From NCBI GenBank assembly GCA_000092065.1, contig CP000592.1: a stretch of DNA of 64,000 nucleotides, one strand, 5' to 3'. Source of the DNA: Ostreococcus lucimarinus. Its lineage: Eukaryota. Below are positions 24,171 through 32,279 of the stretch, in pieces. The position numbers were made by a program, and so were the translations under genes. The notes under the pieces are model-generated. The model was not told where the DNA came from, ran no database searches, and was given only the letters and a program-made list of their open reading frames with translations. The stretch's first letter is position 1, and each line of letters opens with the position of its first letter.

Positions 24171-25166
24171 ATGCTCCTCGGCGTCGGCGCGCGATTTCAA
24201 ATCGTCTTACAACGCACGATGTCGAACAAAATAACCGCTCTCGGCGCCGCCAAACCGAAGGCGCAGATGGGGCTCGGCGCTTTTCTCGTCAAGGGTGTCA
24301 AGATGAGCGAAAACAAAATCCTCGCCGCGAGCGCGCCCACGCGCGCGGTCGCCGTCGAAGCGAAGGCGAAAGAGAACGCGGCGAGCGCTTCGACGAACAC
24401 CGCGGAAGGCGCGGGCGCGGAGGCGACGAAGGCGGAGAAGACGACGTCGCGCGGGAGAAAGACTTCAAAACCGGCGTCGTTCGAAGCGTCGCCGGCGAAG
24501 CGCGCGAAGAAAGCGGCCGGCCCCGGCCCCGATCGCTCGCACGAAAAGAAACACTGGGAAGCAGGTCGTCATCGAGTCGTAGGCGTGGACGAAGCGGGAC
24601 GGGGACCGTTGGCAGGACCTGTGGTGGCGGCGGCGTGCTTCGTGCCGAAGGATTGCGTCGTCGACTGCGTCAACGACTCCAAGCAGCTCACTGAGGAGGG
24701 CAGAGAGGAGATCTTCGAGGAGCTCATGGCGAATAAGGATATCGAGTACGGGGTGTGCGTGATCGATCAAGATCGCATCGATGAGATTAATATTTTGGAG
24801 TGCACGATGGAGGCGATGCACCGAAGCGCCGCCGACGTGCCGAACGTGGACTGGGTGTTAATCGACGGGAATCGCGTTCCGAAGCCGCTGGAAGGCAAAG
24901 CCGAAGCGATCGTGAAAGGTGACGCGAAGAACGTCGCCATCGCCGCCGCGTCTATCATCGCCAAGGTCACGCGGGATCGAATGATGCTCGAAATCGACAA
25001 GGAATTTCCGATGTACGGCTTCAAGGACCACAAAGGATACGGCACCAAGGCGCACATGGCGGCGATCGACAAACACGGCCCGTGCGTGTACCACAGGAAA
25101 ACCTTCGCGCCGATCAAGCACATGGACTTGTCTAAGTGGCCGGAGTGCATGAAGAAGAAGACCTAG
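24171..25166 (+). CDS. rnhB: bacterial-type ribonuclease HII with N-terminal extension (organellar)
   Basis: RNase HII motifs GVDEAGRGPLAGPVV and DSKQLT are present with the C-terminal catalytic region. The alternative start at 24219 (MSNKITALG) is in frame. Confidence 0.8.
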   Translation: MLLGVGARFQIVLQRTMSNKITALGAAKPKAQMGLGAFLVKGVKMSENKILAASAPTRAVAVEAKAKENAASASTNTAEGAGAEATKAEKTTSRGRKTSKPASFEASPAKRAKKAAGPGPDRSHEKKHWEAGRHRVVGVDEAGRGPLAGPVVAAACFVPKDCVVDCVNDSKQLTEEGREEIFEELMANKDIEYGVCVIDQDRIDEINILECTMEAMHRSAADVPNVDWVLIDGNRVPKPLEGKAEAIVKGDAKNVAIAAASIIAKVTRDRMMLEIDKEFPMYGFKDHKGYGTKAHMAAIDKHGPCVYHRKTFAPIKHMDLSKWPECMKKKT

Positions 25167-25234: not shown

Positions 25235-25534
25235 CTACATCACCGCCCGGTACACCCCGAGCGCGACGAACGCCGCCGCGAACGCCCCCATGGCGATCTT
25301 ATGCGACAAAACGCGTCGAGGTTCTCGGTACACCTCCCACGTCACCATCGCCGCGCCCACGGCGCAGGCGGACGTGCCTAAAACTCGACAGCTCAGGCAA
25401 TCGTCGGCGTTCGTCGCCTTCGCGCTCGTTCGCGGGGCGTAGGTGAGGTGCGAGAACGGAATCGACGTCGCGGCGCGCGCGCTCGACGCGGCGCTCGATT
25501 CGCGCGCGCGCGCGCCGTCGACGCCGTCGGGCAT
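25235..25534 (-). CDS. hypothetical small membrane protein with CLSCR motif (possibly DUF4536/DMAC1-like)
   Basis: This 99-aa ORF contains DDCLSCRVLGTSACAVGA and a C-terminal hydrophobic helix. The family assignment is a guess. Confidence 0.3.
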   Translation of the reverse strand: MPDGVDGARARESSAASSARAATSIPFSHLTYAPRTSAKATNADDCLSCRVLGTSACAVGAAMVTWEVYREPRRVLSHKIAMGAFAAAFVALGVYRAVM

Positions 25535-25610
25535 GTCGTCGAGGTCTGAGGAGGCGTGGTCGGCGGTTAGTTGAGCTTTCGCGCGCGGCGGTTGCGTCTA
25601 ATATATGTTA

Positions 25611-28386
25611 CTACGTAGTCGCGGGCGCTTCAGGCGCCGGTGCATGCGCATCATCGACGGTTCCTTCGATGGAAGTAGTCGCGTGCACTTCGTGTGCCGG
25701 TGCATCCACGTCATCAGTGTCCATCGGCGCGGGCGCGGCCACAGGTACGCCCGGAACCGTTTTGGTTTGCAGCGGGTGTGCACCCCCCTGCTCTTGCGTG
25801 GGTTTGGCGTCGCCTTTCGAGTATTTCATGTCGACAAAATGAGTCGCTCGATAGTCATCGATCATCGCCACGTAAGCGAGCACTTCTTTCATCGAACGTA
25901 ATTTGTGGCCGCTTGGTGAGAGGAATTCTTTGTACGAAGTCCCCGCAAGACGTCCACCTTTTCGCTCAAACACGTCTACACGCCAGCCGCGACCGCGAAT
26001 GTCGATATTGGGCGCGTGCTTTTCGACATACGCGTACAATTTCTCAAGTTCGCTCGCTGTCGCGTTTCTGACGGCGAATTTCGTCTCGCGAACCTCGCTG
26101 ACTGGCTTCGCGGCGGTCGTTTTCGGCTTCTTCAACTCCAACCGATCTCTAAGTCGCACATTCTCCTCTTGCAGAGCGCGTACTTTCGCGCGCGAACTGT
26201 CGAGCTGGAACTCACGAGTTTGCACGCGTACTCGTAATCTTTCGAGCTCTCCTGCGTATGATTTCATTTCCTCTACGCTCACGGTGGAAGAGCCGTTGAT
26301 GCCCCTCTTAATATTCTGATCAATATAACGCGCATTTGCAGCGCGTTCCTCCGCGAGTTCTGTCTCGAGCTGCACGAACTTTTCCTCGAGAATCTTGAAG
26401 AAGCTCTCATCGATGACGGTTGAGAGCGCTTTGGGAACTCGAACCATCTGGTTTGGCTCTGCTTTGACATCAGGACGCTCCATATTGCTTTCTTCTTTCT
26501 CAGTGACTGTTTTCTTTGCATCTGCCGCTGCCGCGACTTTATTGACCAAAAGTGGAGGAACGGCAATAGCAGGCGAAGGCTCGACCGTTTGATCATCGAC
26601 CGCAGTGCGCACTTGAGCCTCTCGCATTAAATTCTCGCGCCGCGACACCGCAGTCGGTGCGGACGTCGGTGCGGAGTGGAACGCGTCGCCAGTGTCCGTT
26701 TCCGTTCTTGTCGGCCCGCGTGCGTCCGCTGCGGCGTGCGACGCTAGCGCAGGAACCACGAATTCCTCGTCTTCAATTCTAGTTTGCCATTGATACTCAA
26801 ACTCTCTTGACATGATGCGCGCCATCTTGAACACTGGCGTGTCGTCTTTGTTGTAAGTCATCGCATTGGACCAAACCAGTCGAACGTCGGCGGCGTACGC
26901 CTCGACATTTTTCTCGTCGTAATACCCCGCGTCGATGCGTTCTTTAATCGTACCGAGATCCATCGGATTTTTAATGACTTCGAAGTAGTCTGGAATCTCC
27001 CAGTACACCGGATCGACTGGACGCAAGAAAATGTACGCGTTCTTGTGTACCATGAGAGAGCGATGAATCGACTTGATGCGGGTAAGTGGGGTCGCGACAC
27101 GTCCGCCTTTCGGCCTACCGCGCGGCGCTGGAGCCTTATTCGCACCGTCGCTCCCTCCATCTTCATCGTCTTCGTCGAACGAGCTAGACTTGTGCAAACG
27201 TTTTCGTCGCTTCGCCGTTTGCTTCAAAGACGTCGTTCCCGCGCCGCGGCCGCCGCCGCCGGCTAAACGATACCTTTGAATACCGAAATAATAATCCTGC
27301 ATGCATTGCACTAGATGACGCTTGAACTTTTGATAGGTGATGTCGGCCTCCTTGAATGCTTGTTTGTTGTGTGTCGGTTCCAAGGAGTCCGCCTCGATGA
27401 CACCGATCATATCCTTCATCATTGTGTTCGCCTGCAGCTGCGAACCGAAGCGTTGGTGCATGCGAATCAATCGGTTCTTGTTGTAAATGTGGAACCCACA
27501 CTTCTTCGAAGTTTCATCCGCGGCGTATCCGATGTGAATCGTGATTCCCGCGTCCAAGCCTCGCGGCTTGTACTCCGGAAACACATAATATTCTCGCGCG
27601 AGATGCGCGATCGGGTCTCGCGGCACGACTGGTCGCCCGCGAAGCGTGAATTCGCACCGCGGTTTCAGGTACAAAATTTCCATGTAAGCACGTAAACTAT
27701 AGTCTTCCTGCACATCAATCGACGCCTGCTGGCCTTCGCGCGATTGTTGGAAAATCGGTCCGCGCACCGCTCGCTCGTCATCTGGGATAGCCCCCACCAG
27801 ACGAATGTCATCCTTGTAGCTCGTGAAATCCAACTCGGGCGGATCGCGCAAGTTGAAAAGTACGATGCGCGTCCCGTGTGAACCTCTTATCTTGTCCAAC
27901 TCTCGCATCAACTGTGGCTCCGAGGGTACGAATGAATATCGCAAGATCACAGACATGTGTTCATCCCATTTTTTCGTATTCGCTGGTTCGCTCGCGACGT
28001 ATGAAACCCTGCCGCCAGTCGTCGCGTCTCGCTCCATCCTCCACGAAAACATCGGAATCAGAATGTCGTCCAGCTCGGCGTCATCTAAAAACGTCTGTGA
28101 CAGGAACGCGACGTGGGCGTACCCATCTCTTTTCGTCAATATCAACGCGTCTCGCGCCAATCGCATCGATCCAGACTTAAAACCGATACCAAACCGCCCG
28201 ACGTTCCCAGCCTTGTGTTCCTTGTCGCTAAAACCAAACGACAGCATGCCGACCAGTCGCCGACGATCCATGCCCACGCCGTCGTCTTGAACGATGATGC
28301 CCACATTATTCTTGGGATCGACCATTTTAGAAAGCTCTACGACGTCGACGTGTACGGCTTTGGCTCCACACTCCGCGTCTTGCGCG
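25611..28386 (-). CDS. MORC-family GHKL ATPase – bromodomain – coiled coil – MBD protein, exon 2
   Basis: GHKL/MORC motifs (VDVVELSKMVDPKNNVGIIVQDDGVGMD, GRFGIGFKSGSMRLARDALILTK) and the S5-like region come first. A bromodomain (MVHKNAYIFLRPVDPVYWEIPDYFEVIKNPMDLGTIKERIDAGYY...MTYN), a long coiled coil and an MBD (RGRGWRVDVFERKGGRLAGTSYKEFLSPSGHKLRSMKEVLAYV) follow. The exon-2 5' boundary was set at the AG acceptor at 28387-28388. Confidence 0.75.
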
Positions 28387-28513
28387 CTACGTTCGAGCGA
28401 GAGCGAACGCGCGCGTCAGTCTCGCGTTCCGTCGCGTCGAAACGAAGAAAATCGAGCGAAAACGAGATTCACCGCGCCTCTCAAAATCGCATCGCTCCGC
28501 TTCGTAAACGCAC

Positions 28514-28599
28514 TTATCGATCAGTTCCGCGAGCGCCCCTAACGGCCACACGTGACTCGTGGCGTTACCTGCGCTCAAAAACGACGCGACGCTCCGCAT
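28514..28599 (-). CDS. MORC-bromodomain-MBD gene, exon 1 (MRSVASFLSAGNATSHVWPLGALAELID + first 2 nt of the Asn codon)
   Basis: Exon 1 encodes the MORC N-terminal box (NATSHVW...ALAELIDN). Donor GATAA|gtgcgt and acceptor cgtag|CGCG restore ...ELIDNAQDAECGAKAVHVDV... in frame. The intron is 28387..28513 (127 nt). The ATG at 28597-28599 was verified. Confidence 0.6.
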
Positions 28600-29297
28600 C
28601 AGTCAGTCTTCAGTCTCCGCGACTCGCCGTCTCCGCGATCGTCCCGATTCTCCGCGATCGCGCGCCGCTTTCCCCGCGTTTCCCCCTCACATCTCTCACG
28701 CACTCTTCAGCATCCGCGGGTGCGCCTTCGAGTGTTCCATAGCTCGCGCATCTCTCTGTCGATCCACGTCGAACGTCACTCCGGGAGCCGTCGCGCGCTC
28801 TTCCTCCTCCTCGCCGTCCCGTTCGTCGCCGACGCGTTCCAGCCCCGCCAGCTCCACGCGTTGTGGTTTTTGCTTCCGTCTCTGCGTCGTTCCGTCCCGG
28901 TCCCACCGTCAGTCGTCCGCGACGCGCGAAACCGTCGCATCCGTCTCCTCCCGCGTCCGCGTCGCGCGTCGCGCGCGCGCGCCGCGACGGTCGCACCATT
29001 CCGCTCGACGTTCGCCCGCGCGCGTCCCGTCGCGAACCGATTCACGAAAACCCGCGTCGACGCGCCGATCCCGCGAATCGCCCGCCGTCGCGCGCGCTCG
29101 CGGCGCAATAATTTAACCCGCGCGTCGCGTCGCGCGCGCGACGTCGTTCGCGCGCGCGCGACGAAGTGCCGCGCGCCGTCGCGGCGTCCGAGCGCGGGCA
29201 ACAACGCGCGCGTTCGGACGCACGAGGACGCGCGACGCCGCCGTCTCTCGGCGCACACGCGCGCGCGCGCGACGCGAAGATTTTTCTCCGCCTCGGC

Positions 29298-32279
29298 ATG
29301 GCGCGCGATCGGCGCGATCGAGCGTCGCGCGCGGATGGGACCGCTCGAGCGAACCCTCGCGGGCGCGCGCGCGCGCGAGGCGTCGTCGTCGTCGTCGCGG
29401 CGTGCGCGGCGATCGTCGAGGCGGCGGTCGTCGAGGACGCGACGAGTCGGTCGATCGGGTTCGTCGCGACGGGCGAGGACGCGGTGGTGCGCGCGCGGGT
29501 GGTGACGGATCGGTCGCGGGCGAGGACGCGGGTGTCGGCGCGGTGCGCGAAGGGGTGGGAAGGCGAGACGCGCGTCGAGGCGCGCGACGACGGACGATGG
29601 CCGGACGACGTCGCGAACGACGGCGTGTACGCGGCGAAGTGCTCGACGGATGGTTTGCGAGCGGGTGAACGCGTGCGGTGGCGATGGGAGGTGGAATCGC
29701 CGGAACGCGCGTTCGCGCCGACGGGACGGGCGAGATATTACGGGACGGTTCTCGAAAAAGATTTAAGAGCGGATACGAGTCTGAGCGTCGTGCACGTGTT
29801 CGCCCCGGACTATCGGAAGATGACCACCGACGAGGGCGAACGGGTTGGGGTGTACTTTGAGGGGCGGTATTACGACGACGTCCTCATGCGCCGACGAGGA
29901 TCGAATCGTAAGGAAGCCGTGATCGGGGTCGATTTGTCCGCCGCGAATTGGCCCAAGCACAAGTTTAAGCTCGATTTTCACGGTCGGGTGTTCAAGTTCG
30001 ACGAGAACGAGCGCAAGGTAGAGGAAATTAATTTGCAGTCGCATTATCAAGAGCCAGGGGAAGAGACGTACCTACGCGAGAATCTCGGATTCGCCATACT
30101 GCGCCGCGCCGGCGTGCCGGCGTCGCTGACCAAGCACGTACAAGTCCGCGTGAATAACGAGTTCTACGGATTATTCTCGTTGATCGAGCAAGTCGACTCG
30201 ACTTTCCTTCGCCGGAACTATCTCGATCCTGAAGGAGCGTTGTATAAGGCGGTGAATTGGAAGTACAGCAATCTTCGAGCGGGAGATCCGAACCTGCCTT
30301 GCCCGTACGCTACGCCCGATTACAAGCGAGAATGGATGAACGACGGTTGTCCGGAAATCTATCGTAAAGCTTCAAAGGCGAATCGTGACAATTGGGACGA
30401 TTTGTGGGAGCTCACGCAAGTGATCGAGCGCGTACGCAGGAATCCCGGGGGCGAGGCGTACTTGCTGTACGATCATACCAATCTTCCCGCCTTGGTGAAC
30501 GAAATGGCTGCACAAACGCTCATGCTCGGAGCCGATCGCTGTACAAAGAACTACTACATGCACAAAGACTGGACGGGCGAATGGTCGCGTATTCCGTGGG
30601 ACGTGGAAGACGTGTTTCCGGGAGATAAACGATACGGCATCGACCTCTGTAAGTCGAGTGAATGCGACAAGAAATCAACCGCGTATTGCATTCTGTCGTG
30701 CGAAAAGTTCAACTCGCCGCTGTACTGCGACCGAAATCATCCCCAGGACATCTTTTACGCTCAATCTCCCGAGCAAGACCCTCGATCAACGTACAATGTT
30801 CTCATAGACGTTATGCTCGCAGTCTGGCCAGTCAAGGAGATGTACTTCACCCGCTTGCGCACGCTTATGGATGAGATTTTGGCAACGTCGTTCATCGACG
30901 ACTACGCGAGGCGCACGTTGAACATTATACGCAAAGATGCTCTGCGGGATTCAGAGAAGTGGGGGGTCGGCGCCGTGCGAGCTATCGACCAAGGCGTGCT
31001 TCAGCTGCTCTCGCAAATCGTCCCGAAACGCCGAGACCAATTGTTCAACCAATACAGCTCCATGATACCATCGTCGACGCCTTCGAATGCGCGAGTGTAC
31101 GTCTCACACGCGCAAAAGAATGGCGTTGAAGCGTACGTCAAGATTAGTAATCCGAACGGCTATGCCGTGGACGTGTCGTTTTGGATAGTCGAAACTCGAG
31201 GCGGGTGGAAATATACGCTGAAACCGGGCACCGTTCTCGGCGCCGGTCGCACCCTGTTCGTCGTCAGGGACGCGAAAGAATTCAGACGTCGCGCGACGTG
31301 GGCTCGCCGCGAATACCCCGAAGGCGTCTTCGTGCAAGGAAATTTCCAATCTGATTTAGACACAGATGACGTGAATATGATTTCTGTGACAAGGACATCC
31401 GAGCGCGTCGCCGCGCTCAACGGACGTGGGCGCGCGTTCAGACGGTTTCGACCACGCGTAGGATTCGACAACACTTCGTGCGCGCTCCCAGATGTCGGTC
31501 CTTGGAGCGAATACGGTGATTGCTGCGCCGAAGGCAAATGCGGTTTGTGGTGCGGCGTCCAAAACGCCGCGCGAGTTCGACGTCGAGACGTGAACATCAC
31601 GCTCGGACTTGATCCGAACGATTTACCGCAGTGTTTGGTCCATAGCTATGAGATTGATAGACGCTGCGCGAGCCTTGAGTGCGGCACGCCGAGACCGCCG
31701 AACTCGACGGCGTGTCGAATTCCCTCGAATGAATCGTTTGTGCGTCTCTCGCGAAACGACCAAAGCGTCATCTTTAGTCCGATTTTCGGCTTGAACACAC
31801 GCACGTGGGAGGATTGGAGTTACAAGGTGGAAGTCGCACCGCACGACGCGCACGGCGTCGATGGCGCTTCAAAGTCGTTGAAAATCCTCGTACACTCGGG
31901 TGGTGGTTTGGCGTTTCGAGCGACGGCGCGAAACGACACTCGGCTCACTTCCGCACACTTCTGGATCGCGAGACACGCCCCGCCCCAACCCCTTCCGCGC
32001 CTCGTCTTCGACCTCGAGTCGACGAGCGATAACACCACGACGACGCGCGCGGCGCCCGGAGAGTTTCTTCGAGGCATCGCCCGCGCGCAGAGCGACTGGA
32101 ACGCCGGTTGCTACGTCGAAATCATCGCCGATTTCGCCGGCTTCGACGACTCTCCGACCACCGCGGCGCGCGAGCCGTCGTCCGTCAAAATCGTTCTCAA
32201 GAGCGCGTTCGGCTCGCCAACGCGTCTCTGGCTCGGTCGCGCGGTGGCCGTGTTCTCATCTCACGAAAACGCGCCGTAA
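29298..32279 (+). CDS. CotH-domain (kinase-like) protein with N-terminal signal-anchor and Cys-rich C-terminal region
   Basis: The signal anchor is GVVVVVAACAAIVEAAVV. The central region matches the CotH family (LRENLGFAILRRAGVPASLTKHVQVRVNNEFYGLFSLIEQVDSTFLRRNY...YKAVNW). The C-terminal roughly 350 aa are Cys-rich. The ATG at 29298 is in frame with the track ORF that begins at 29166. Confidence 0.65.
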   Translation: MARDRRDRASRADGTARANPRGRARARGVVVVVAACAAIVEAAVVEDATSRSIGFVATGEDAVVRARVVTDRSRARTRVSARCAKGWEGETRVEARDDGRWPDDVANDGVYAAKCSTDGLRAGERVRWRWEVESPERAFAPTGRARYYGTVLEKDLRADTSLSVVHVFAPDYRKMTTDEGERVGVYFEGRYYDDVLMRRRGSNRKEAVIGVDLSAANWPKHKFKLDFHGRVFKFDENERKVEEINLQSHYQEPGEETYLRENLGFAILRRAGVPASLTKHVQVRVNNEFYGLFSLIEQVDSTFLRRNYLDPEGALYKAVNWKYSNLRAGDPNLPCPYATPDYKREWMNDGCPEIYRKASKANRDNWDDLWELTQVIERVRRNPGGEAYLLYDHTNLPALVNEMAAQTLMLGADRCTKNYYMHKDWTGEWSRIPWDVEDVFPGDKRYGIDLCKSSECDKKSTAYCILSCEKFNSPLYCDRNHPQDIFYAQSPEQDPRSTYNVLIDVMLAVWPVKEMYFTRLRTLMDEILATSFIDDYARRTLNIIRKDALRDSEKWGVGAVRAIDQGVLQLLSQIVPKRRDQLFNQYSSMIPSSTPSNARVYVSHAQKNGVEAYVKISNPNGYAVDVSFWIVETRGGWKYTLKPGTVLGAGRTLFVVRDAKEFRRRATWARREYPEGVFVQGNFQSDLDTDDVNMISVTRTSERVAALNGRGRAFRRFRPRVGFDNTSCALPDVGPWSEYGDCCAEGKCGLWCGVQNAARVRRRDVNITLGLDPNDLPQCLVHSYEIDRRCASLECGTPRPPNSTACRIPSNESFVRLSRNDQSVIFSPIFGLNTRTWEDWSYKVEVAPHDAHGVDGASKSLKILVHSGGGLAFRATARNDTRLTSAHFWIARHAPPQPLPRLVFDLESTSDNTTTTRAAPGEFLRGIARAQSDWNAGCYVEIIADFAGFDDSPTTAAREPSSVKIVLKSAFGSPTRLWLGRAVAVFSSHENAP

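What the first reader, a model, noticed from the sequence alone, without database searches (positions are those of the whole stretch)
25611..28599. One gene encodes MORC GHKL ATPase + bromodomain + coiled coil + methyl-CpG-binding domain
Read directly: a spliced minus-strand gene of about 950 aa whose two exons are joined by a 127-nt intron. It starts with the MORC N-box (NATSHVW..ALAELIDN, restored across the intron), the DDGVGMD ATP lid and the GFKSGSMRL motif. It continues without interruption into a canonical bromodomain (YF..I..PMDL..I...Y, MTYN). A coiled coil of about 250 aa follows, then an MBD (GWRVDVFERKGGRLAGTSYKEFLSPSGHKLRSMKEVLAYV). Established knowledge: MORCs are chromatin-compacting and gene-silencing ATPases normally paired with CW or PHD readers; bromodomains read acetyl-lysine and MBDs read 5mC. 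A single chain with an ATP-driven compactor, an acetyl-lysine reader and a methyl-DNA reader is an architecture I do not recognise from characterised proteins. Inference: in a lineage with nucleosome-linker CG methylation it could couple methyl-DNA recognition to MORC-type compaction.
Basis: partly seen in the sequence, partly recalled or inferred. Interest (0 to 1): 0.78.

Follow-up and report, generated by a model that had tools for sequence, protein, structure and literature searches.

The report
Ostreococcus MORC ATPase with bromodomain and MBD
The only MORC chromatin ATPase gene of the tiny marine alga Ostreococcus lucimarinus does carry an acetyl-lysine reader and a methyl-DNA-type binding domain in one chain. 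This layout was already catalogued in 2008 for the sister species, the gene model needed correcting, and the methyl-DNA domain lacks two residues normally needed to sense methylation.

Summary
The domain observation holds. One continuous minus-strand reading frame encodes GHKL ATPase, S5, bromodomain, a helical region and an MBD, and every Pfam hit is above its curated cut-off. Intron-free, polyadenylated transcript contigs from many sequencing runs show a single mRNA of about 3.2 kb.

The gene model was only partly right. The 127-nt intron is real. The gene has four exons and three introns and encodes 1003 aa. The proposed start (ATG 28599, MRSVASFLSAG) lies inside an intron. The "250-aa coiled coil" is about 120 aa of disorder plus about 90 aa of helix.

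The window is O. lucimarinus CCE9901, and RefSeq XP_001420833.1 is a truncated 904-aa version of this gene. The O. tauri orthologue has the same architecture. Iyer, Abhiman and Aravind (2008) already listed Bromo and TAM/MBD fusions to MORC, with O. tauri named in the figure legend.

The MBD is found only in Ostreococcus. Bathycoccus, other Mamiellophyceae-like relatives and Cymbomonas have MORC plus bromodomain without it. It has an MBD fold with both arginine fingers. The Asp/Tyr pair that gives 5mC selectivity is replaced by invariant Tyr/Glu, so 5mC reading is unproven.

Verdict: a real but already catalogued architecture of moderate interest.

The parts
28997..29152 (-). Exon 1: 5' UTR ending in the start codon ATG (28999..28997). 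The 5' ends of the transcript contigs lie at 29101-29152.
   Evidence: Transcript contigs L004-L011 align to 29152/29127..28997. There is no upstream ATG in the 128-nt leader. The N-terminus MRRKQKP matches the O. tauri RefSeq model.
28882..28996 (-). Intron 1 (115 nt, GTGCGA...CAG)
   Evidence: Absent from all 8 transcript contigs.
28704..28881 (-). Exon 2: N-terminal extension plus MEHSKAHPRMLKS, the conserved MORC N-terminal strand
   Evidence: The motif is conserved in O. tauri, Bathycoccus and Cymbomonas homologues.
28569..28703 (-). Intron 2 (135 nt, GTGCGT...CAG).
   Evidence: Absent from all transcript contigs.
28514..28568 (-). Exon 3 (55 nt): NATSHVWPLGALAELID-N, the N-box with catalytic Glu75 and the first two bases of the Asn79 codon, which is completed by the first base of exon 4
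28387..28513 (-). Intron 3 (127 nt, GTGCGT...TAG).
   Evidence: Absent from all transcript contigs. An O. tauri read-through ORF (P0008) shows the same intron position.
25611..28386 (-). Exon 4: the rest of the CDS (residues 79-1003) plus the stop codon TAG (25613..25611)
   Evidence: The last 904 codons are identical to O. lucimarinus XP_001420833.1.
28074..28539 (-). GHKL ATPase core (Pfam HATPase_c_3, residues 71-183; the span includes intron 3). G1 box DDGVGM starts at residue 113 and the G2/ATP lid GRFGIGFKSGS at 142.
   Evidence: Pfam 1.3e-17. MORC3 5ix1 E 3e-61. Residues invariant across 53 homologues.
27288..27701 (-). MORC S5-fold domain (residues 308-445) with the conserved THNKQ lysine K420
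   Evidence: Pfam Morc6_S5 2.9e-25. AF2 pLDDT about 90.
27099..27125 (-). AT-hook-like motif PRGRPKGGR (residues 500-508) in the disordered linker before the bromodomain
   Evidence: Read from the sequence. An RGRP core is present in 6 of 7 Ostreococcus-clade orthologues and absent from the five non-Ostreococcus homologues checked. No HMM support.
26760..27098 (-). Bromodomain (residues 509-621) with acetyl-lysine pocket residues Tyr546 and Asn591
   Evidence: Pfam 2.9e-20. PDB BPTF 2e-18 and BRD4. AF2 pLDDT 83-96.
26406..26765 (-). Predicted disordered spacer (residues about 620-739)
   Evidence: AF2 pLDDT 25-38 with no secondary structure.
26136..26408 (-). Two long helices (residues 739-770 and 783-829). 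This is the putative coiled-coil dimerisation region, about 90 aa.
   Evidence: AF2 helices with pLDDT 65-86. Conserved in orthologues. Coiled-coil pairing itself was not tested.
25842..26069 (-). MBD module (residues 852-927): an extra N-terminal helix plus the MBD beta-hairpin and helix. Arg fingers are R887 and R909, with Tyr897 and Glu899 in place of the canonical Asp and Tyr.
   Evidence: Pfam MBD 26.1 bits against a cut-off of 21. Profile versus PDB: AtMBD5 7e-6, MBD4, MBD2, MeCP2. Foldseek top 35 hits are all MBDs, and most core alignments of 39-46 residues have rmsd 0.6-1.7 A. Residue numbering.
25614..25835 (-). Disordered Ala/Pro-rich C-terminal tail (residues 930-1003)
   Evidence: AF2 pLDDT below 40.
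25571..25610 (-). Very short 3' UTR, with poly(A) addition at about 25571-25579
   Evidence: Non-templated A-tails on contigs L007 and L009.

Best explanation
This is the single MORC gene of Ostreococcus lucimarinus. It is a four-exon, expressed gene encoding a 1003-aa protein.

Shown:
- The order of parts is: N-terminal extension; GHKL+S5 ATPase of the MORC3 type, with all catalytic motifs intact; a disordered basic linker with an AT-hook-like RGRP; a bromodomain with an intact acetyl-lysine pocket, sitting where animal MORC3/4 carry the CW finger; a 120-aa disordered spacer; about 90 aa of long helices; a helix-extended MBD-fold module; and a disordered tail.

Inferred mechanism:
- As in characterised MORCs, two chains are held together by the C-terminal helices, and their ATPase heads dimerise on ATP binding to clamp or compact DNA.
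- The bromodomain targets the enzyme to acetylated nucleosomes. By analogy with the MORC3 CW domain, it may also gate the ATPase.
- The MBD, probably helped by the AT-hook, anchors the C-terminal end on CpG-containing linker DNA through its two arginine fingers.
- Whether the MBD prefers methylated CpG is open. The Asp/Tyr pair that confers 5mC selectivity is replaced by a conserved Tyr/Glu pair.

The MBD and the AT-hook are Ostreococcus-specific additions to an older MORC-bromodomain protein of prasinophyte algae. The MBD is most similar to the second MBD of an Ostreococcus Cdc6/ORC1-like protein.
For: - Single ORF and domains.
- Single spliced, polyadenylated mRNA seen in 22 runs.
- Identity with O. 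lucimarinus XP_001420833.1.
- O. lucimarinus has one MORC gene: PMC6048995.
- MORC3 similarity and conserved E75, N79, DDGVGM, GxxGxG and K420.
- Bromodomain pocket residues.
- AF2 domain boundaries.
- MBD fold and both Arg fingers invariant in orthologues only 38-48% identical across this module.
- MBD present in all 8 Ostreococcus-clade clusters and absent from 29 other MORC-bromodomain homologues, even with unfiltered HMM search.
- 46% identity (E 3e-18) to MBD2 of the O. tauri Cdc6-like protein.
- MORC3 CW autoinhibition and release by H3K4me3: PMC7596504.
- Mamiellales have DNMT5-dependent CG methylation in nucleosome linkers: PMC5082852 and PMC10538959, both citing Huff and Zilberman 2014.
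Against: - No biochemical data exist for this protein or any orthologue.
- The MBD lacks the Tyr (cMBD2 Y36 / MeCP2 Y123) that mutagenesis links to methyl selectivity. It also lacks the Asp that buttresses Arg finger 1 (PMC3159451).
- A canonical D-x-Y MBD exists in the same genus, so the variant may have a different job.
- Coiled-coil dimerisation, ATPase activity, acetyl-lysine binding and any bromodomain-ATPase contact are inferred only.
- Bathycoccus shares the methylation machinery but lacks the MBD. The MBD is therefore not a general part of the linker-methylation system.
Confidence: 0.6

Rival explanations
1. The C-terminal MBD-fold module is not a 5mC reader. Like MBD3, the BAZ2A/B TAM domain or other degenerate MBDs, it binds DNA (or RNA or protein) regardless of methylation, or it prefers another state such as unmethylated or hemimethylated CpG. 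It would simply add DNA affinity to the MORC clamp.
For: - The Asp and Tyr equivalent to MeCP2 D121 and Y123 are replaced by invariant Tyr897 and Glu899.
- Mutagenesis implicates that tyrosine in methyl selectivity (PMC3159451).
- Among 215 MBD-like domains from 1.84 billion representative proteins, 69 carry R-D-Y-R and only 9 carry R-Y-E-R.
- The O. tauri Cdc6-like protein keeps a canonical MBD next to a variant one, which suggests a division of labour.
- Only profile positions 13-53 of 77 match the Pfam model.
Against: - Both guanine-contacting arginine fingers and the fold are strictly conserved.
- The Tyr and Glu lie at i and i+2 on the same strand face as the canonical Asp and Tyr. A swapped acid/aromatic pair could still serve.
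- The genome is densely CG-methylated in linkers (PMC5082852), so a CpG binder would meet mainly methylated sites.
Confidence: 0.35
2. The bromodomain is mainly an intramolecular regulator. It docks on the ATPase and keeps it off until an acetylated tail competes it away, as the CW domain does in MORC3. The protein would then act at active, acetylated chromatin such as gene bodies or promoters, not as a heterochromatin silencer.
For: - The bromodomain occupies the position of CW directly after the S5 domain.
- MORC3 is autoinhibited by CW and released by H3K4me3, an active-chromatin mark (PMC7596504).
- The ATPase is most similar to MORC3.
Against: - No contact information is available: no PAE or multimer model.
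- A disordered linker of about 54 residues separates S5 and the bromodomain.
- MORC4, with the same layout, is not autoinhibited.
Confidence: 0.3
3. The MORC, bromodomain and MBD parts belong to separate genes or transcripts, and the long ORF is a read-through or assembly artefact.
For: - The public RefSeq model is imperfect, being truncated at the 5' end.
- Some transcript contigs (L004-L006) run on into downstream genes, which shows that contig merging happens in this compact genome.
Against: - There is no stop codon in 904 codons.
- Eight of 8 independent transcript contigs examined (of 22 carrying this ORF) hold the complete 1003-aa ORF. Two of them carry poly(A) tails just after the stop codon.
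- The same collinear architecture is found in five further Ostreococcus lineages at 53-60% identity.
Confidence: 0.02

Closest known systems
Ostreococcus tauri MORC (XP_022840115.1 'Histidine kinase-like ATPase, ATP-binding domain'; OUS46630.1 'Zcwcc3-prov protein'), the MORC-Bromo-TAM/MBD architecture catalogued by Iyer, Abhiman and Aravind 2008 (Biol Direct 3:8)
   Same: An orthologue at 53% identity. It has the same N-terminus (MRRKQKP...MEHSKAHPRMLKSNATSHVW) and the same intron position in the N-box. It has the same four Pfam domains in the same order, and the same Tyr/Glu variant MBD.
   Different: It is a different species. O. tauri lacks the RGRP AT-hook core (RRGRS instead). The O. lucimarinus RefSeq model is truncated by 99 residues, whereas the O. 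tauri model is complete.
Animal MORC3 / MORC4 (GHKL-S5 ATPase, CW zinc finger, coiled coil)
   Same: Best sequence match to any solved structure (5ix1 E 3e-61, 7k7t 4.5e-48). All ATPase motifs are present. A histone-reader domain sits immediately after S5, and there is a C-terminal helical region.
   Different: There is no CW domain (no PF07496 hit). A bromodomain (acetyl-lysine) replaces the H3K4me3 reader. It has an extra C-terminal MBD and an AT-hook-like motif.
MORC-bromodomain proteins of other prasinophytes (Bathycoccus prasinos CAL6296722.1, Cymbomonas KAK3280731.1, uncultured Mamiellophyceae-like relatives)
   Same: ATPase, S5, bromodomain and C-terminal helices, at 40-60% identity in the ATPase.
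   Different: None has an MBD, even with an unfiltered search using the Ostreococcus MBD profile. The five checked have no RGRP motif.
BAZ2A/BAZ2B (TAM/MBD plus PHD plus bromodomain) and MeCP2 (MBD plus AT-hooks)
   Same: They combine an MBD-fold DNA binder with a bromodomain (BAZ2A/B) or with AT-hooks (MeCP2) in one chain. BAZ2B TAM is a weak hit of the MBD profile, and BAZ2A/B bromodomains are among the good bromodomain hits.
   Different: They have no ATPase in the same chain. BAZ2A works through the separate SNF2H motor (from general knowledge). Domain order and sequence are unrelated outside the shared folds.
Ostreococcus Cdc6/ORC1-like protein with two N-terminal MBDs (O. tauri 'Methyl-CpG DNA binding', P0389)
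   Same: Its second MBD is the closest relative of the MORC MBD (46% identity, E 3e-18). It has the same aromatic-Lys-Glu variant and a preceding helix.
   Different: The motor is an AAA+ replication-licensing type ATPase, not GHKL. It also carries a canonical D-x-Y MBD, which the MORC lacks.

Membership tests
MORC (GHKL+S5 ATPase) | Bergerat-fold motifs: N-box ExxxN, G1 DxGxG and G2/ATP lid GxxGxG | tested here: met
   E75 and N79 in AELIDNAQD, DDGVGM at 113, and GRFGIGFKSGS at 142. HATPase_c_3 1.3e-17. Aligned residue by residue to MORC3 5ix1.
MORC (GHKL+S5 ATPase) | MORC-type S5-fold transducer domain with the conserved lysine | tested here: met
   Morc6_S5 2.9e-25 over the full profile (1-139). 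THNKQ with K420 is invariant in 53 homologues.
MORC (GHKL+S5 ATPase) | C-terminal coiled coil that mediates constitutive dimerisation | tested here: inconclusive
   AF2 predicts two long helices (739-770 and 783-829, pLDDT 65-86). My heptad script flagged no segment at its arbitrary cut-off and is uninformative. No multimer prediction was possible.
MORC (GHKL+S5 ATPase) | ATP-dependent head dimerisation and DNA-stimulated ATP hydrolysis | not testable with these tools
   Needs purified protein.
MORC3/4 subfamily (CW-containing) | CW-type zinc finger after the S5 domain | tested here: not met
   No PF07496 hit at E up to 1. The animal hits all carry it. A bromodomain occupies that position.
Bromodomain | Four-helix bundle matching the family model | tested here: met
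   PF00439 2.9e-20, profile positions 4-83 of 84. AF2 gives helices Z, A, B and C with pLDDT 83-96.
Bromodomain | Acetyl-lysine pocket Asn (BRD4 N140) and Tyr (BRD4 Y97) | tested here: met
   N591 in MTYNK and Y546 in PDYF align with YNK and PDYY of BRD4 BD1.
Bromodomain | Binding of acetylated histone peptides | not testable with these tools
   Needs peptide binding assays.
MBD (methyl-CpG-binding domain) | MBD fold (beta-hairpin wedge plus helix) matching the family model | tested here: met
   PF01429 26.1 bits (cut-off 21), and 24.8-34.9 bits in orthologues. Orthologue profile versus PDB: AtMBD5 7e-6, MBD4, MBD2, MeCP2. Foldseek top 35 hits are all MBDs, probability 1.0 for most, and most core alignments have rmsd 0.6-1.7 A.
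MBD (methyl-CpG-binding domain) | Two arginine fingers that contact the CpG guanines (MeCP2 R111 and R133) | tested here: met
   R887 and R909 are invariant in 7 orthologues and align without gaps.
MBD (methyl-CpG-binding domain) | Asp and Tyr of the 5mC-selective MBDs (MeCP2 D121 and Y123; cMBD2 D34 and Y36) | tested here: not met
   They are replaced by invariant Tyr897 and Glu899. The roles of these residues are described in PMC3159451.
MBD (methyl-CpG-binding domain) | Preferential binding to symmetrically methylated CpG | not testable with these tools
   Needs EMSA, ITC or FP with CG, hemi-mCG and mCG probes.

The most novel reading that the evidence does not exclude
The aromatic-Lys-Glu variant MBD ([Y/W]-K-E in place of D-x-Y) may be a distinct Ostreococcus reader class with its own specificity, for example for the dense DNMT5-made CG methylation of nucleosome linkers or for hemimethylated CpG after replication. 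It has been placed on two different ATP-driven machines, the sole MORC and a Cdc6/ORC1-like licensing factor. That would tie linker methylation directly to chromatin compaction and to replication-origin choice in one of the smallest eukaryotic nuclei.
Probability: 0.2. Interest if true: 0.7.

Novelty: already known. Interest (0 to 1): 0.33.

Why it matters
If the MBD does sense CpG methylation, this protein would be a natural one-chain link between DNA methylation, histone acetylation and a MORC motor. It occurs in an alga whose genome is methylated almost only in nucleosome linkers. It would then be a ready-made candidate for the unknown reader of that unusual methylation. O. tauri is, to my knowledge, genetically tractable.

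As it stands, the architecture has been in the comparative-genomics literature since 2008 and in public annotation. The fresh content here is:
- a corrected gene model;
- the finding that the MBD is confined to Ostreococcus;
- the non-canonical Tyr/Glu pair in the MBD;
- its kinship with the MBD of a Cdc6/ORC1-like protein.

Tried and rejected
The transcripts splice that region out.
I used the 904-aa exon-4 ORF instead, so the N-terminal strand and N-box are missing from the model.
- The search for homologous proteins with the MBD alignment returned nothing, not even the query proteins. I treat this as a tool limitation, not a result.
- My crude heptad script flagged no coiled coil at an arbitrary threshold. 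It is uninformative.
- The Huff and Zilberman 2014 paper is not held. Its conclusions are cited second-hand from PMC5082852 and PMC10538959.
- I could not see Figure 2B of Iyer et al. 2008. That O. tauri is the MORC-Bromo-TAM/MBD example is inferred from the legend and text. The supplement held is only a 770-character stub.
- Searches for papers on Ostreococcus MBD proteins, or on MORC together with bromodomain in Ostreococcus, found nothing further.
- Rfam and tRNA scans of the whole window found nothing.
- The gene-fusion or separate-transcript artefact was considered and rejected (see rivals).
- A hidden divergent MBD in Bathycoccus or other non-Ostreococcus homologues was tested with an unfiltered profile search and not found.
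Full report
**What is in the sequence.**
The minus strand between 25611 and 28325 holds a 904-codon ORF with no stop. It contains, in order, DDGVGMD, GFKSGSMRL, an S5 region, a bromodomain, a helical region and the string GWRVDVFERKGGRLAGTSYKEFLSPSGHKLRSMKEVLAYV.

Pfam on the spliced product gives four families above their curated cut-offs:

| Pfam family | E-value | Note |
|---|---|---|
| Morc6_S5 | 2.9e-25 | |
| Bromodomain | 2.9e-20 | |
| HATPase_c_3 | 1.3e-17 | |
| MBD | 6.4e-6 | 26.1 bits, cut-off 21 |

The best solved relative is the MORC3 ATPase (5ix1, E 3e-61, 366 residues aligned), followed by MORC4 and MORC2. The domain observation is far beyond chance.

**Whose gene it is.**
The 904-aa ORF is identical to Ostreococcus lucimarinus CCE9901 XP_001420833.1 / UniProt A4S5V0, annotated as 'predicted protein' or 'Bromo domain-containing protein'. 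A published survey counts a single MORC gene in O. lucimarinus (PMC6048995). This is therefore the alga's only MORC.

**The real gene model.**
A cluster member of 1003 aa (P0133) came from Logan assemblies of 22 sequencing runs, as contigs of about 3.2 kb. Eight of these contigs aligned to the window in four blocks with three clean gaps.

| Feature | Coordinates | Detail |
|---|---|---|
| Exon 1 | up to 29152..28997 | 5' UTR ending in ATG |
| Intron 1 | 28996..28882 | 115 nt |
| Exon 2 | 28881..28704 | |
| Intron 2 | 28703..28569 | 135 nt |
| Exon 3 | 28568..28514 | 55 nt |
| Intron 3 | 28513..28387 | 127 nt |
| Exon 4 | 28386..25611 | rest of CDS and stop |

All introns begin GTGCG(A/T) and end AG. 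Two contigs end in non-templated A-runs at about 25571-25579, so they derive from polyadenylated mRNA with a 3' UTR of about 35 nt.

- Its 'exon 1' is not. ATG 28599 and MRSVASFLSAG lie inside intron 2, and the true sequence is ...MEHSKAHPRMLKS|NATSHVW.
- The leader has no earlier ATG, and the first AUG gives 1003 aa.
- The N-terminus MRRKQKPQR... matches the RNA-supported O. tauri model XP_022840115.1 (MRRKQKPSR...MEHSKAHPRMLKSNATSHVW).
- The RefSeq O. lucimarinus model therefore lacks 99 residues, including the catalytic N-box.
ATPase, bromodomain and MBD are on one mRNA.

**Anatomy.**
AlphaFold2 on the 904-aa ORF with 53 homologues (add 99 for full-length numbering) gives the layout below.

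| Region | Residues (1003-aa numbering) | Prediction |
|---|---|---|
| ATPase + S5 | to about 454 | confident |
| Basic linker | 455-508 | disordered; contains KRRKRLHK and an AT-hook-like PRGRPKGGR |
| Bromodomain | 509-621 | confident, pLDDT about 90 |
| Spacer | about 620-739 | disordered |
| Two long helices | 739-770 and 783-829 | pLDDT 65-86 |
| C-terminal module | 852-927 | compact; helix, two strands, helix; pLDDT 79-96 |
| Tail | 930-1003 | disordered |

The 'coiled coil of about 250 aa' is thus about 90 aa of helix behind a long flexible spacer.

The catalytic residues are all present and are invariant or nearly so in 53 homologues. These are E75 and N79, DDGVGM, the GxxGxG lid and the S5 lysine K420. 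The bromodomain keeps the acetyl-lysine pocket Tyr546 and Asn591 when aligned to BRD4 and BPTF.

**The MBD in detail.**
- A profile of seven orthologous C-terminal modules hits only MBD proteins in the PDB. The hits are AtMBD5 7e-6, MBD4, AtMBD6, MBD2, MeCP2, MBD1 and, weakly, MBD3 and BAZ2B.
- A separate AF2 model of the module has mean pLDDT 75, and 80-91 in the core. Its 35 best Foldseek hits are all MBDs, and most core alignments of 39-46 residues have rmsd 0.6-1.7 A. The fold is not in doubt.
- The gap-free alignments show both guanine-contacting arginines (R887, R909) invariant.
- The Asp and Tyr of canonical readers (MeCP2 D121 and Y123; chicken MBD2 D34 and Y36) are replaced by Tyr897 and Glu899. 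These are invariant among orthologues that are otherwise only 38-48% identical across this module.
- In MBD2 the tyrosine contacts the methyl group and is the residue mutagenesis ties to methyl selectivity. The aspartate buttresses the first arginine (PMC3159451).
- I searched 1.84 billion representative proteins with the module profile and found 140 proteins with 215 MBD-like domains. Sixty-nine have the canonical R-D-Y-R signature and nine have R-Y-E-R.

I therefore file the module as an MBD by fold. I do not file it as a demonstrated or even canonical 5mC reader. The swapped acid/aromatic pair on the same strand face could preserve or alter the read-out, and only binding assays can tell.

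**Distribution.**
- MBD-bearing orthologues fall into eight 90%-identity clusters at 53-100% identity. They include O. tauri (OUS46630.1 'Zcwcc3-prov protein'; XP_022840115.1) and several uncultured Ostreococcus-like lineages.
- Twenty-nine further MORC-bromodomain homologues have ATPase, S5, bromodomain and C-terminal helices but no MBD. This holds even with an unfiltered search using the Ostreococcus profile. They include Bathycoccus prasinos CAL6296722.1, Cymbomonas KAK3280731.1 and many marine metagenome proteins.
- The RGRP motif has a similar distribution. It is present in 6 of 7 Ostreococcus-clade orthologues, and the five non-Ostreococcus homologues checked lack it.
- The MORC-bromodomain fusion is therefore old within prasinophytes. 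The MBD, with an AT-hook-like motif, is a genus-level addition.
- Bathycoccus and Micromonas share the loss of DNMT1 and the presence of DNMT5 (PMC10538959). Mamiellales as a group show CG methylation in nucleosome linkers (PMC5082852 citing Huff and Zilberman 2014). The MBD cannot be an obligatory component of that system.

**Where the MBD came from.**
Its nearest relative outside MORCs is the second MBD of an Ostreococcus Cdc6/ORC1-like AAA+ protein.
- The examples are P0250 and O. tauri P0389, annotated 'Methyl-CpG DNA binding'. Their layout is MBD x2, AAA and Cdc6_C.
- The second MBD is 46% identical to the MORC MBD (E 3e-18). It has the same aromatic-Lys-Glu variant and a similar preceding helix.
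- In the O. tauri protein the first MBD is canonical (…VKDKYFYAPCGTRFRS). The genus therefore retains classical MBDs, and the MORC carries the variant type. This argues for a differentiated role of the variant, not a simple substitute.

**How it most likely works.**
- *Shown:* the parts list and their intact motifs.
- *From established knowledge:* MORC GHKL heads dimerise on ATP and act on DNA. In MORC3 the reader domain after S5 blocks DNA binding by the ATPase until its histone ligand is bound (PMC7596504).
- *Inferred:* a dimer held by the C-terminal helices closes its ATPase heads on DNA. The bromodomain directs, and perhaps licenses, this at acetylated nucleosomes. The MBD and AT-hook, on long flexible tethers, hold the complex on CpG-containing linker DNA.

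I put 0.6 on this overall picture. Roughly one third of the remaining weight goes to the variant in which the MBD is methylation-blind or reads a different CpG state.

**Comparison with what is known, and novelty.**
[quoted passage not shown] They predicted that MORCs respond to histone and DNA-methylation marks.
- The legend of their architecture figure defines TAM/MBD and lists 'Otau: Ostreococcus tauri'.
- O. tauri's MORC is the Bromo+MBD protein, and I found no other MORC-MBD lineage.
- That figure almost certainly shows this architecture, though I could not view it.
- No experimental work on it turned up.

The finding is therefore real but already catalogued.

New here:
- the corrected O. 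lucimarinus gene model;
- the restriction of the MBD to Ostreococcus;
- the Tyr/Glu variant;
- the link to the Cdc6/ORC1-like MBD.

**Scores.**
- Interest is 0.33. It is a sound, testable candidate for reading an unusual methylome, but it has long been known computationally, it is lineage-restricted, and the key reader property is in doubt.
- Novelty class: already known.

Noticed in passing
Not in the window; proteins P0250, P0389 (O. tauri 'Methyl-CpG DNA binding', 813 aa), P0390-P0402: Ostreococcus and related marine algae encode a Cdc6/ORC1-like AAA+ protein with two N-terminal MBDs. In O. tauri one is canonical (D-K-Y) and the other is the same aromatic-K-E variant as in the MORC. No paper found in my searches discusses an MBD on a replication-licensing-type ATPase.
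   Followed up: partly
window 28326..28999 (-): The RefSeq/UniProt model of this gene (XP_001420833.1 / A4S5V0, 904 aa) misses three 5' introns and the first 99 residues, including the catalytic N-box. The O. tauri model is correct.
   Followed up: yes
window 27099..27125 (-): AT-hook-like PRGRPKGGR just before the bromodomain. The RGRP core is shared by most Ostreococcus orthologues and absent from the MBD-less homologues checked, so it may have been gained together with the MBD. It recalls the MBD plus AT-hook pairing of MeCP2.
   Followed up: partly
window 25235..25534 (-) and 24171..25166 (+); loci L004-L006: Some transcript contigs continue past the MORC poly(A) site. They run through a 99-aa ORF only 77 nt downstream and into the convergent RNase HII gene. 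This suggests read-through or overlapping transcripts, or contig merging, in this very compact genome.
   Followed up: no
window 28997..29300, both strands: The MORC mRNA 5' ends (29101-29152) lie almost against the start of the divergent CotH-domain gene (ORF 29166..32279 +). This implies a bidirectional promoter of roughly 100-200 bp.
   Followed up: no
protein P0255 (253 aa, metagenomic): A small protein joins the same Y-R-E variant MBD to ankyrin repeats. This is a third context for this MBD subtype.
   Followed up: no
representative-search hits P0259, P0261-P0263, P0273: Many two-MBD proteins pair a canonical D-K-Y-Y MBD with a variant Y-K-[C/V]-Y MBD whose second arginine finger is Tyr. 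This points to a recurrent canonical-plus-variant tandem design. The organisms are unknown.
   Followed up: no
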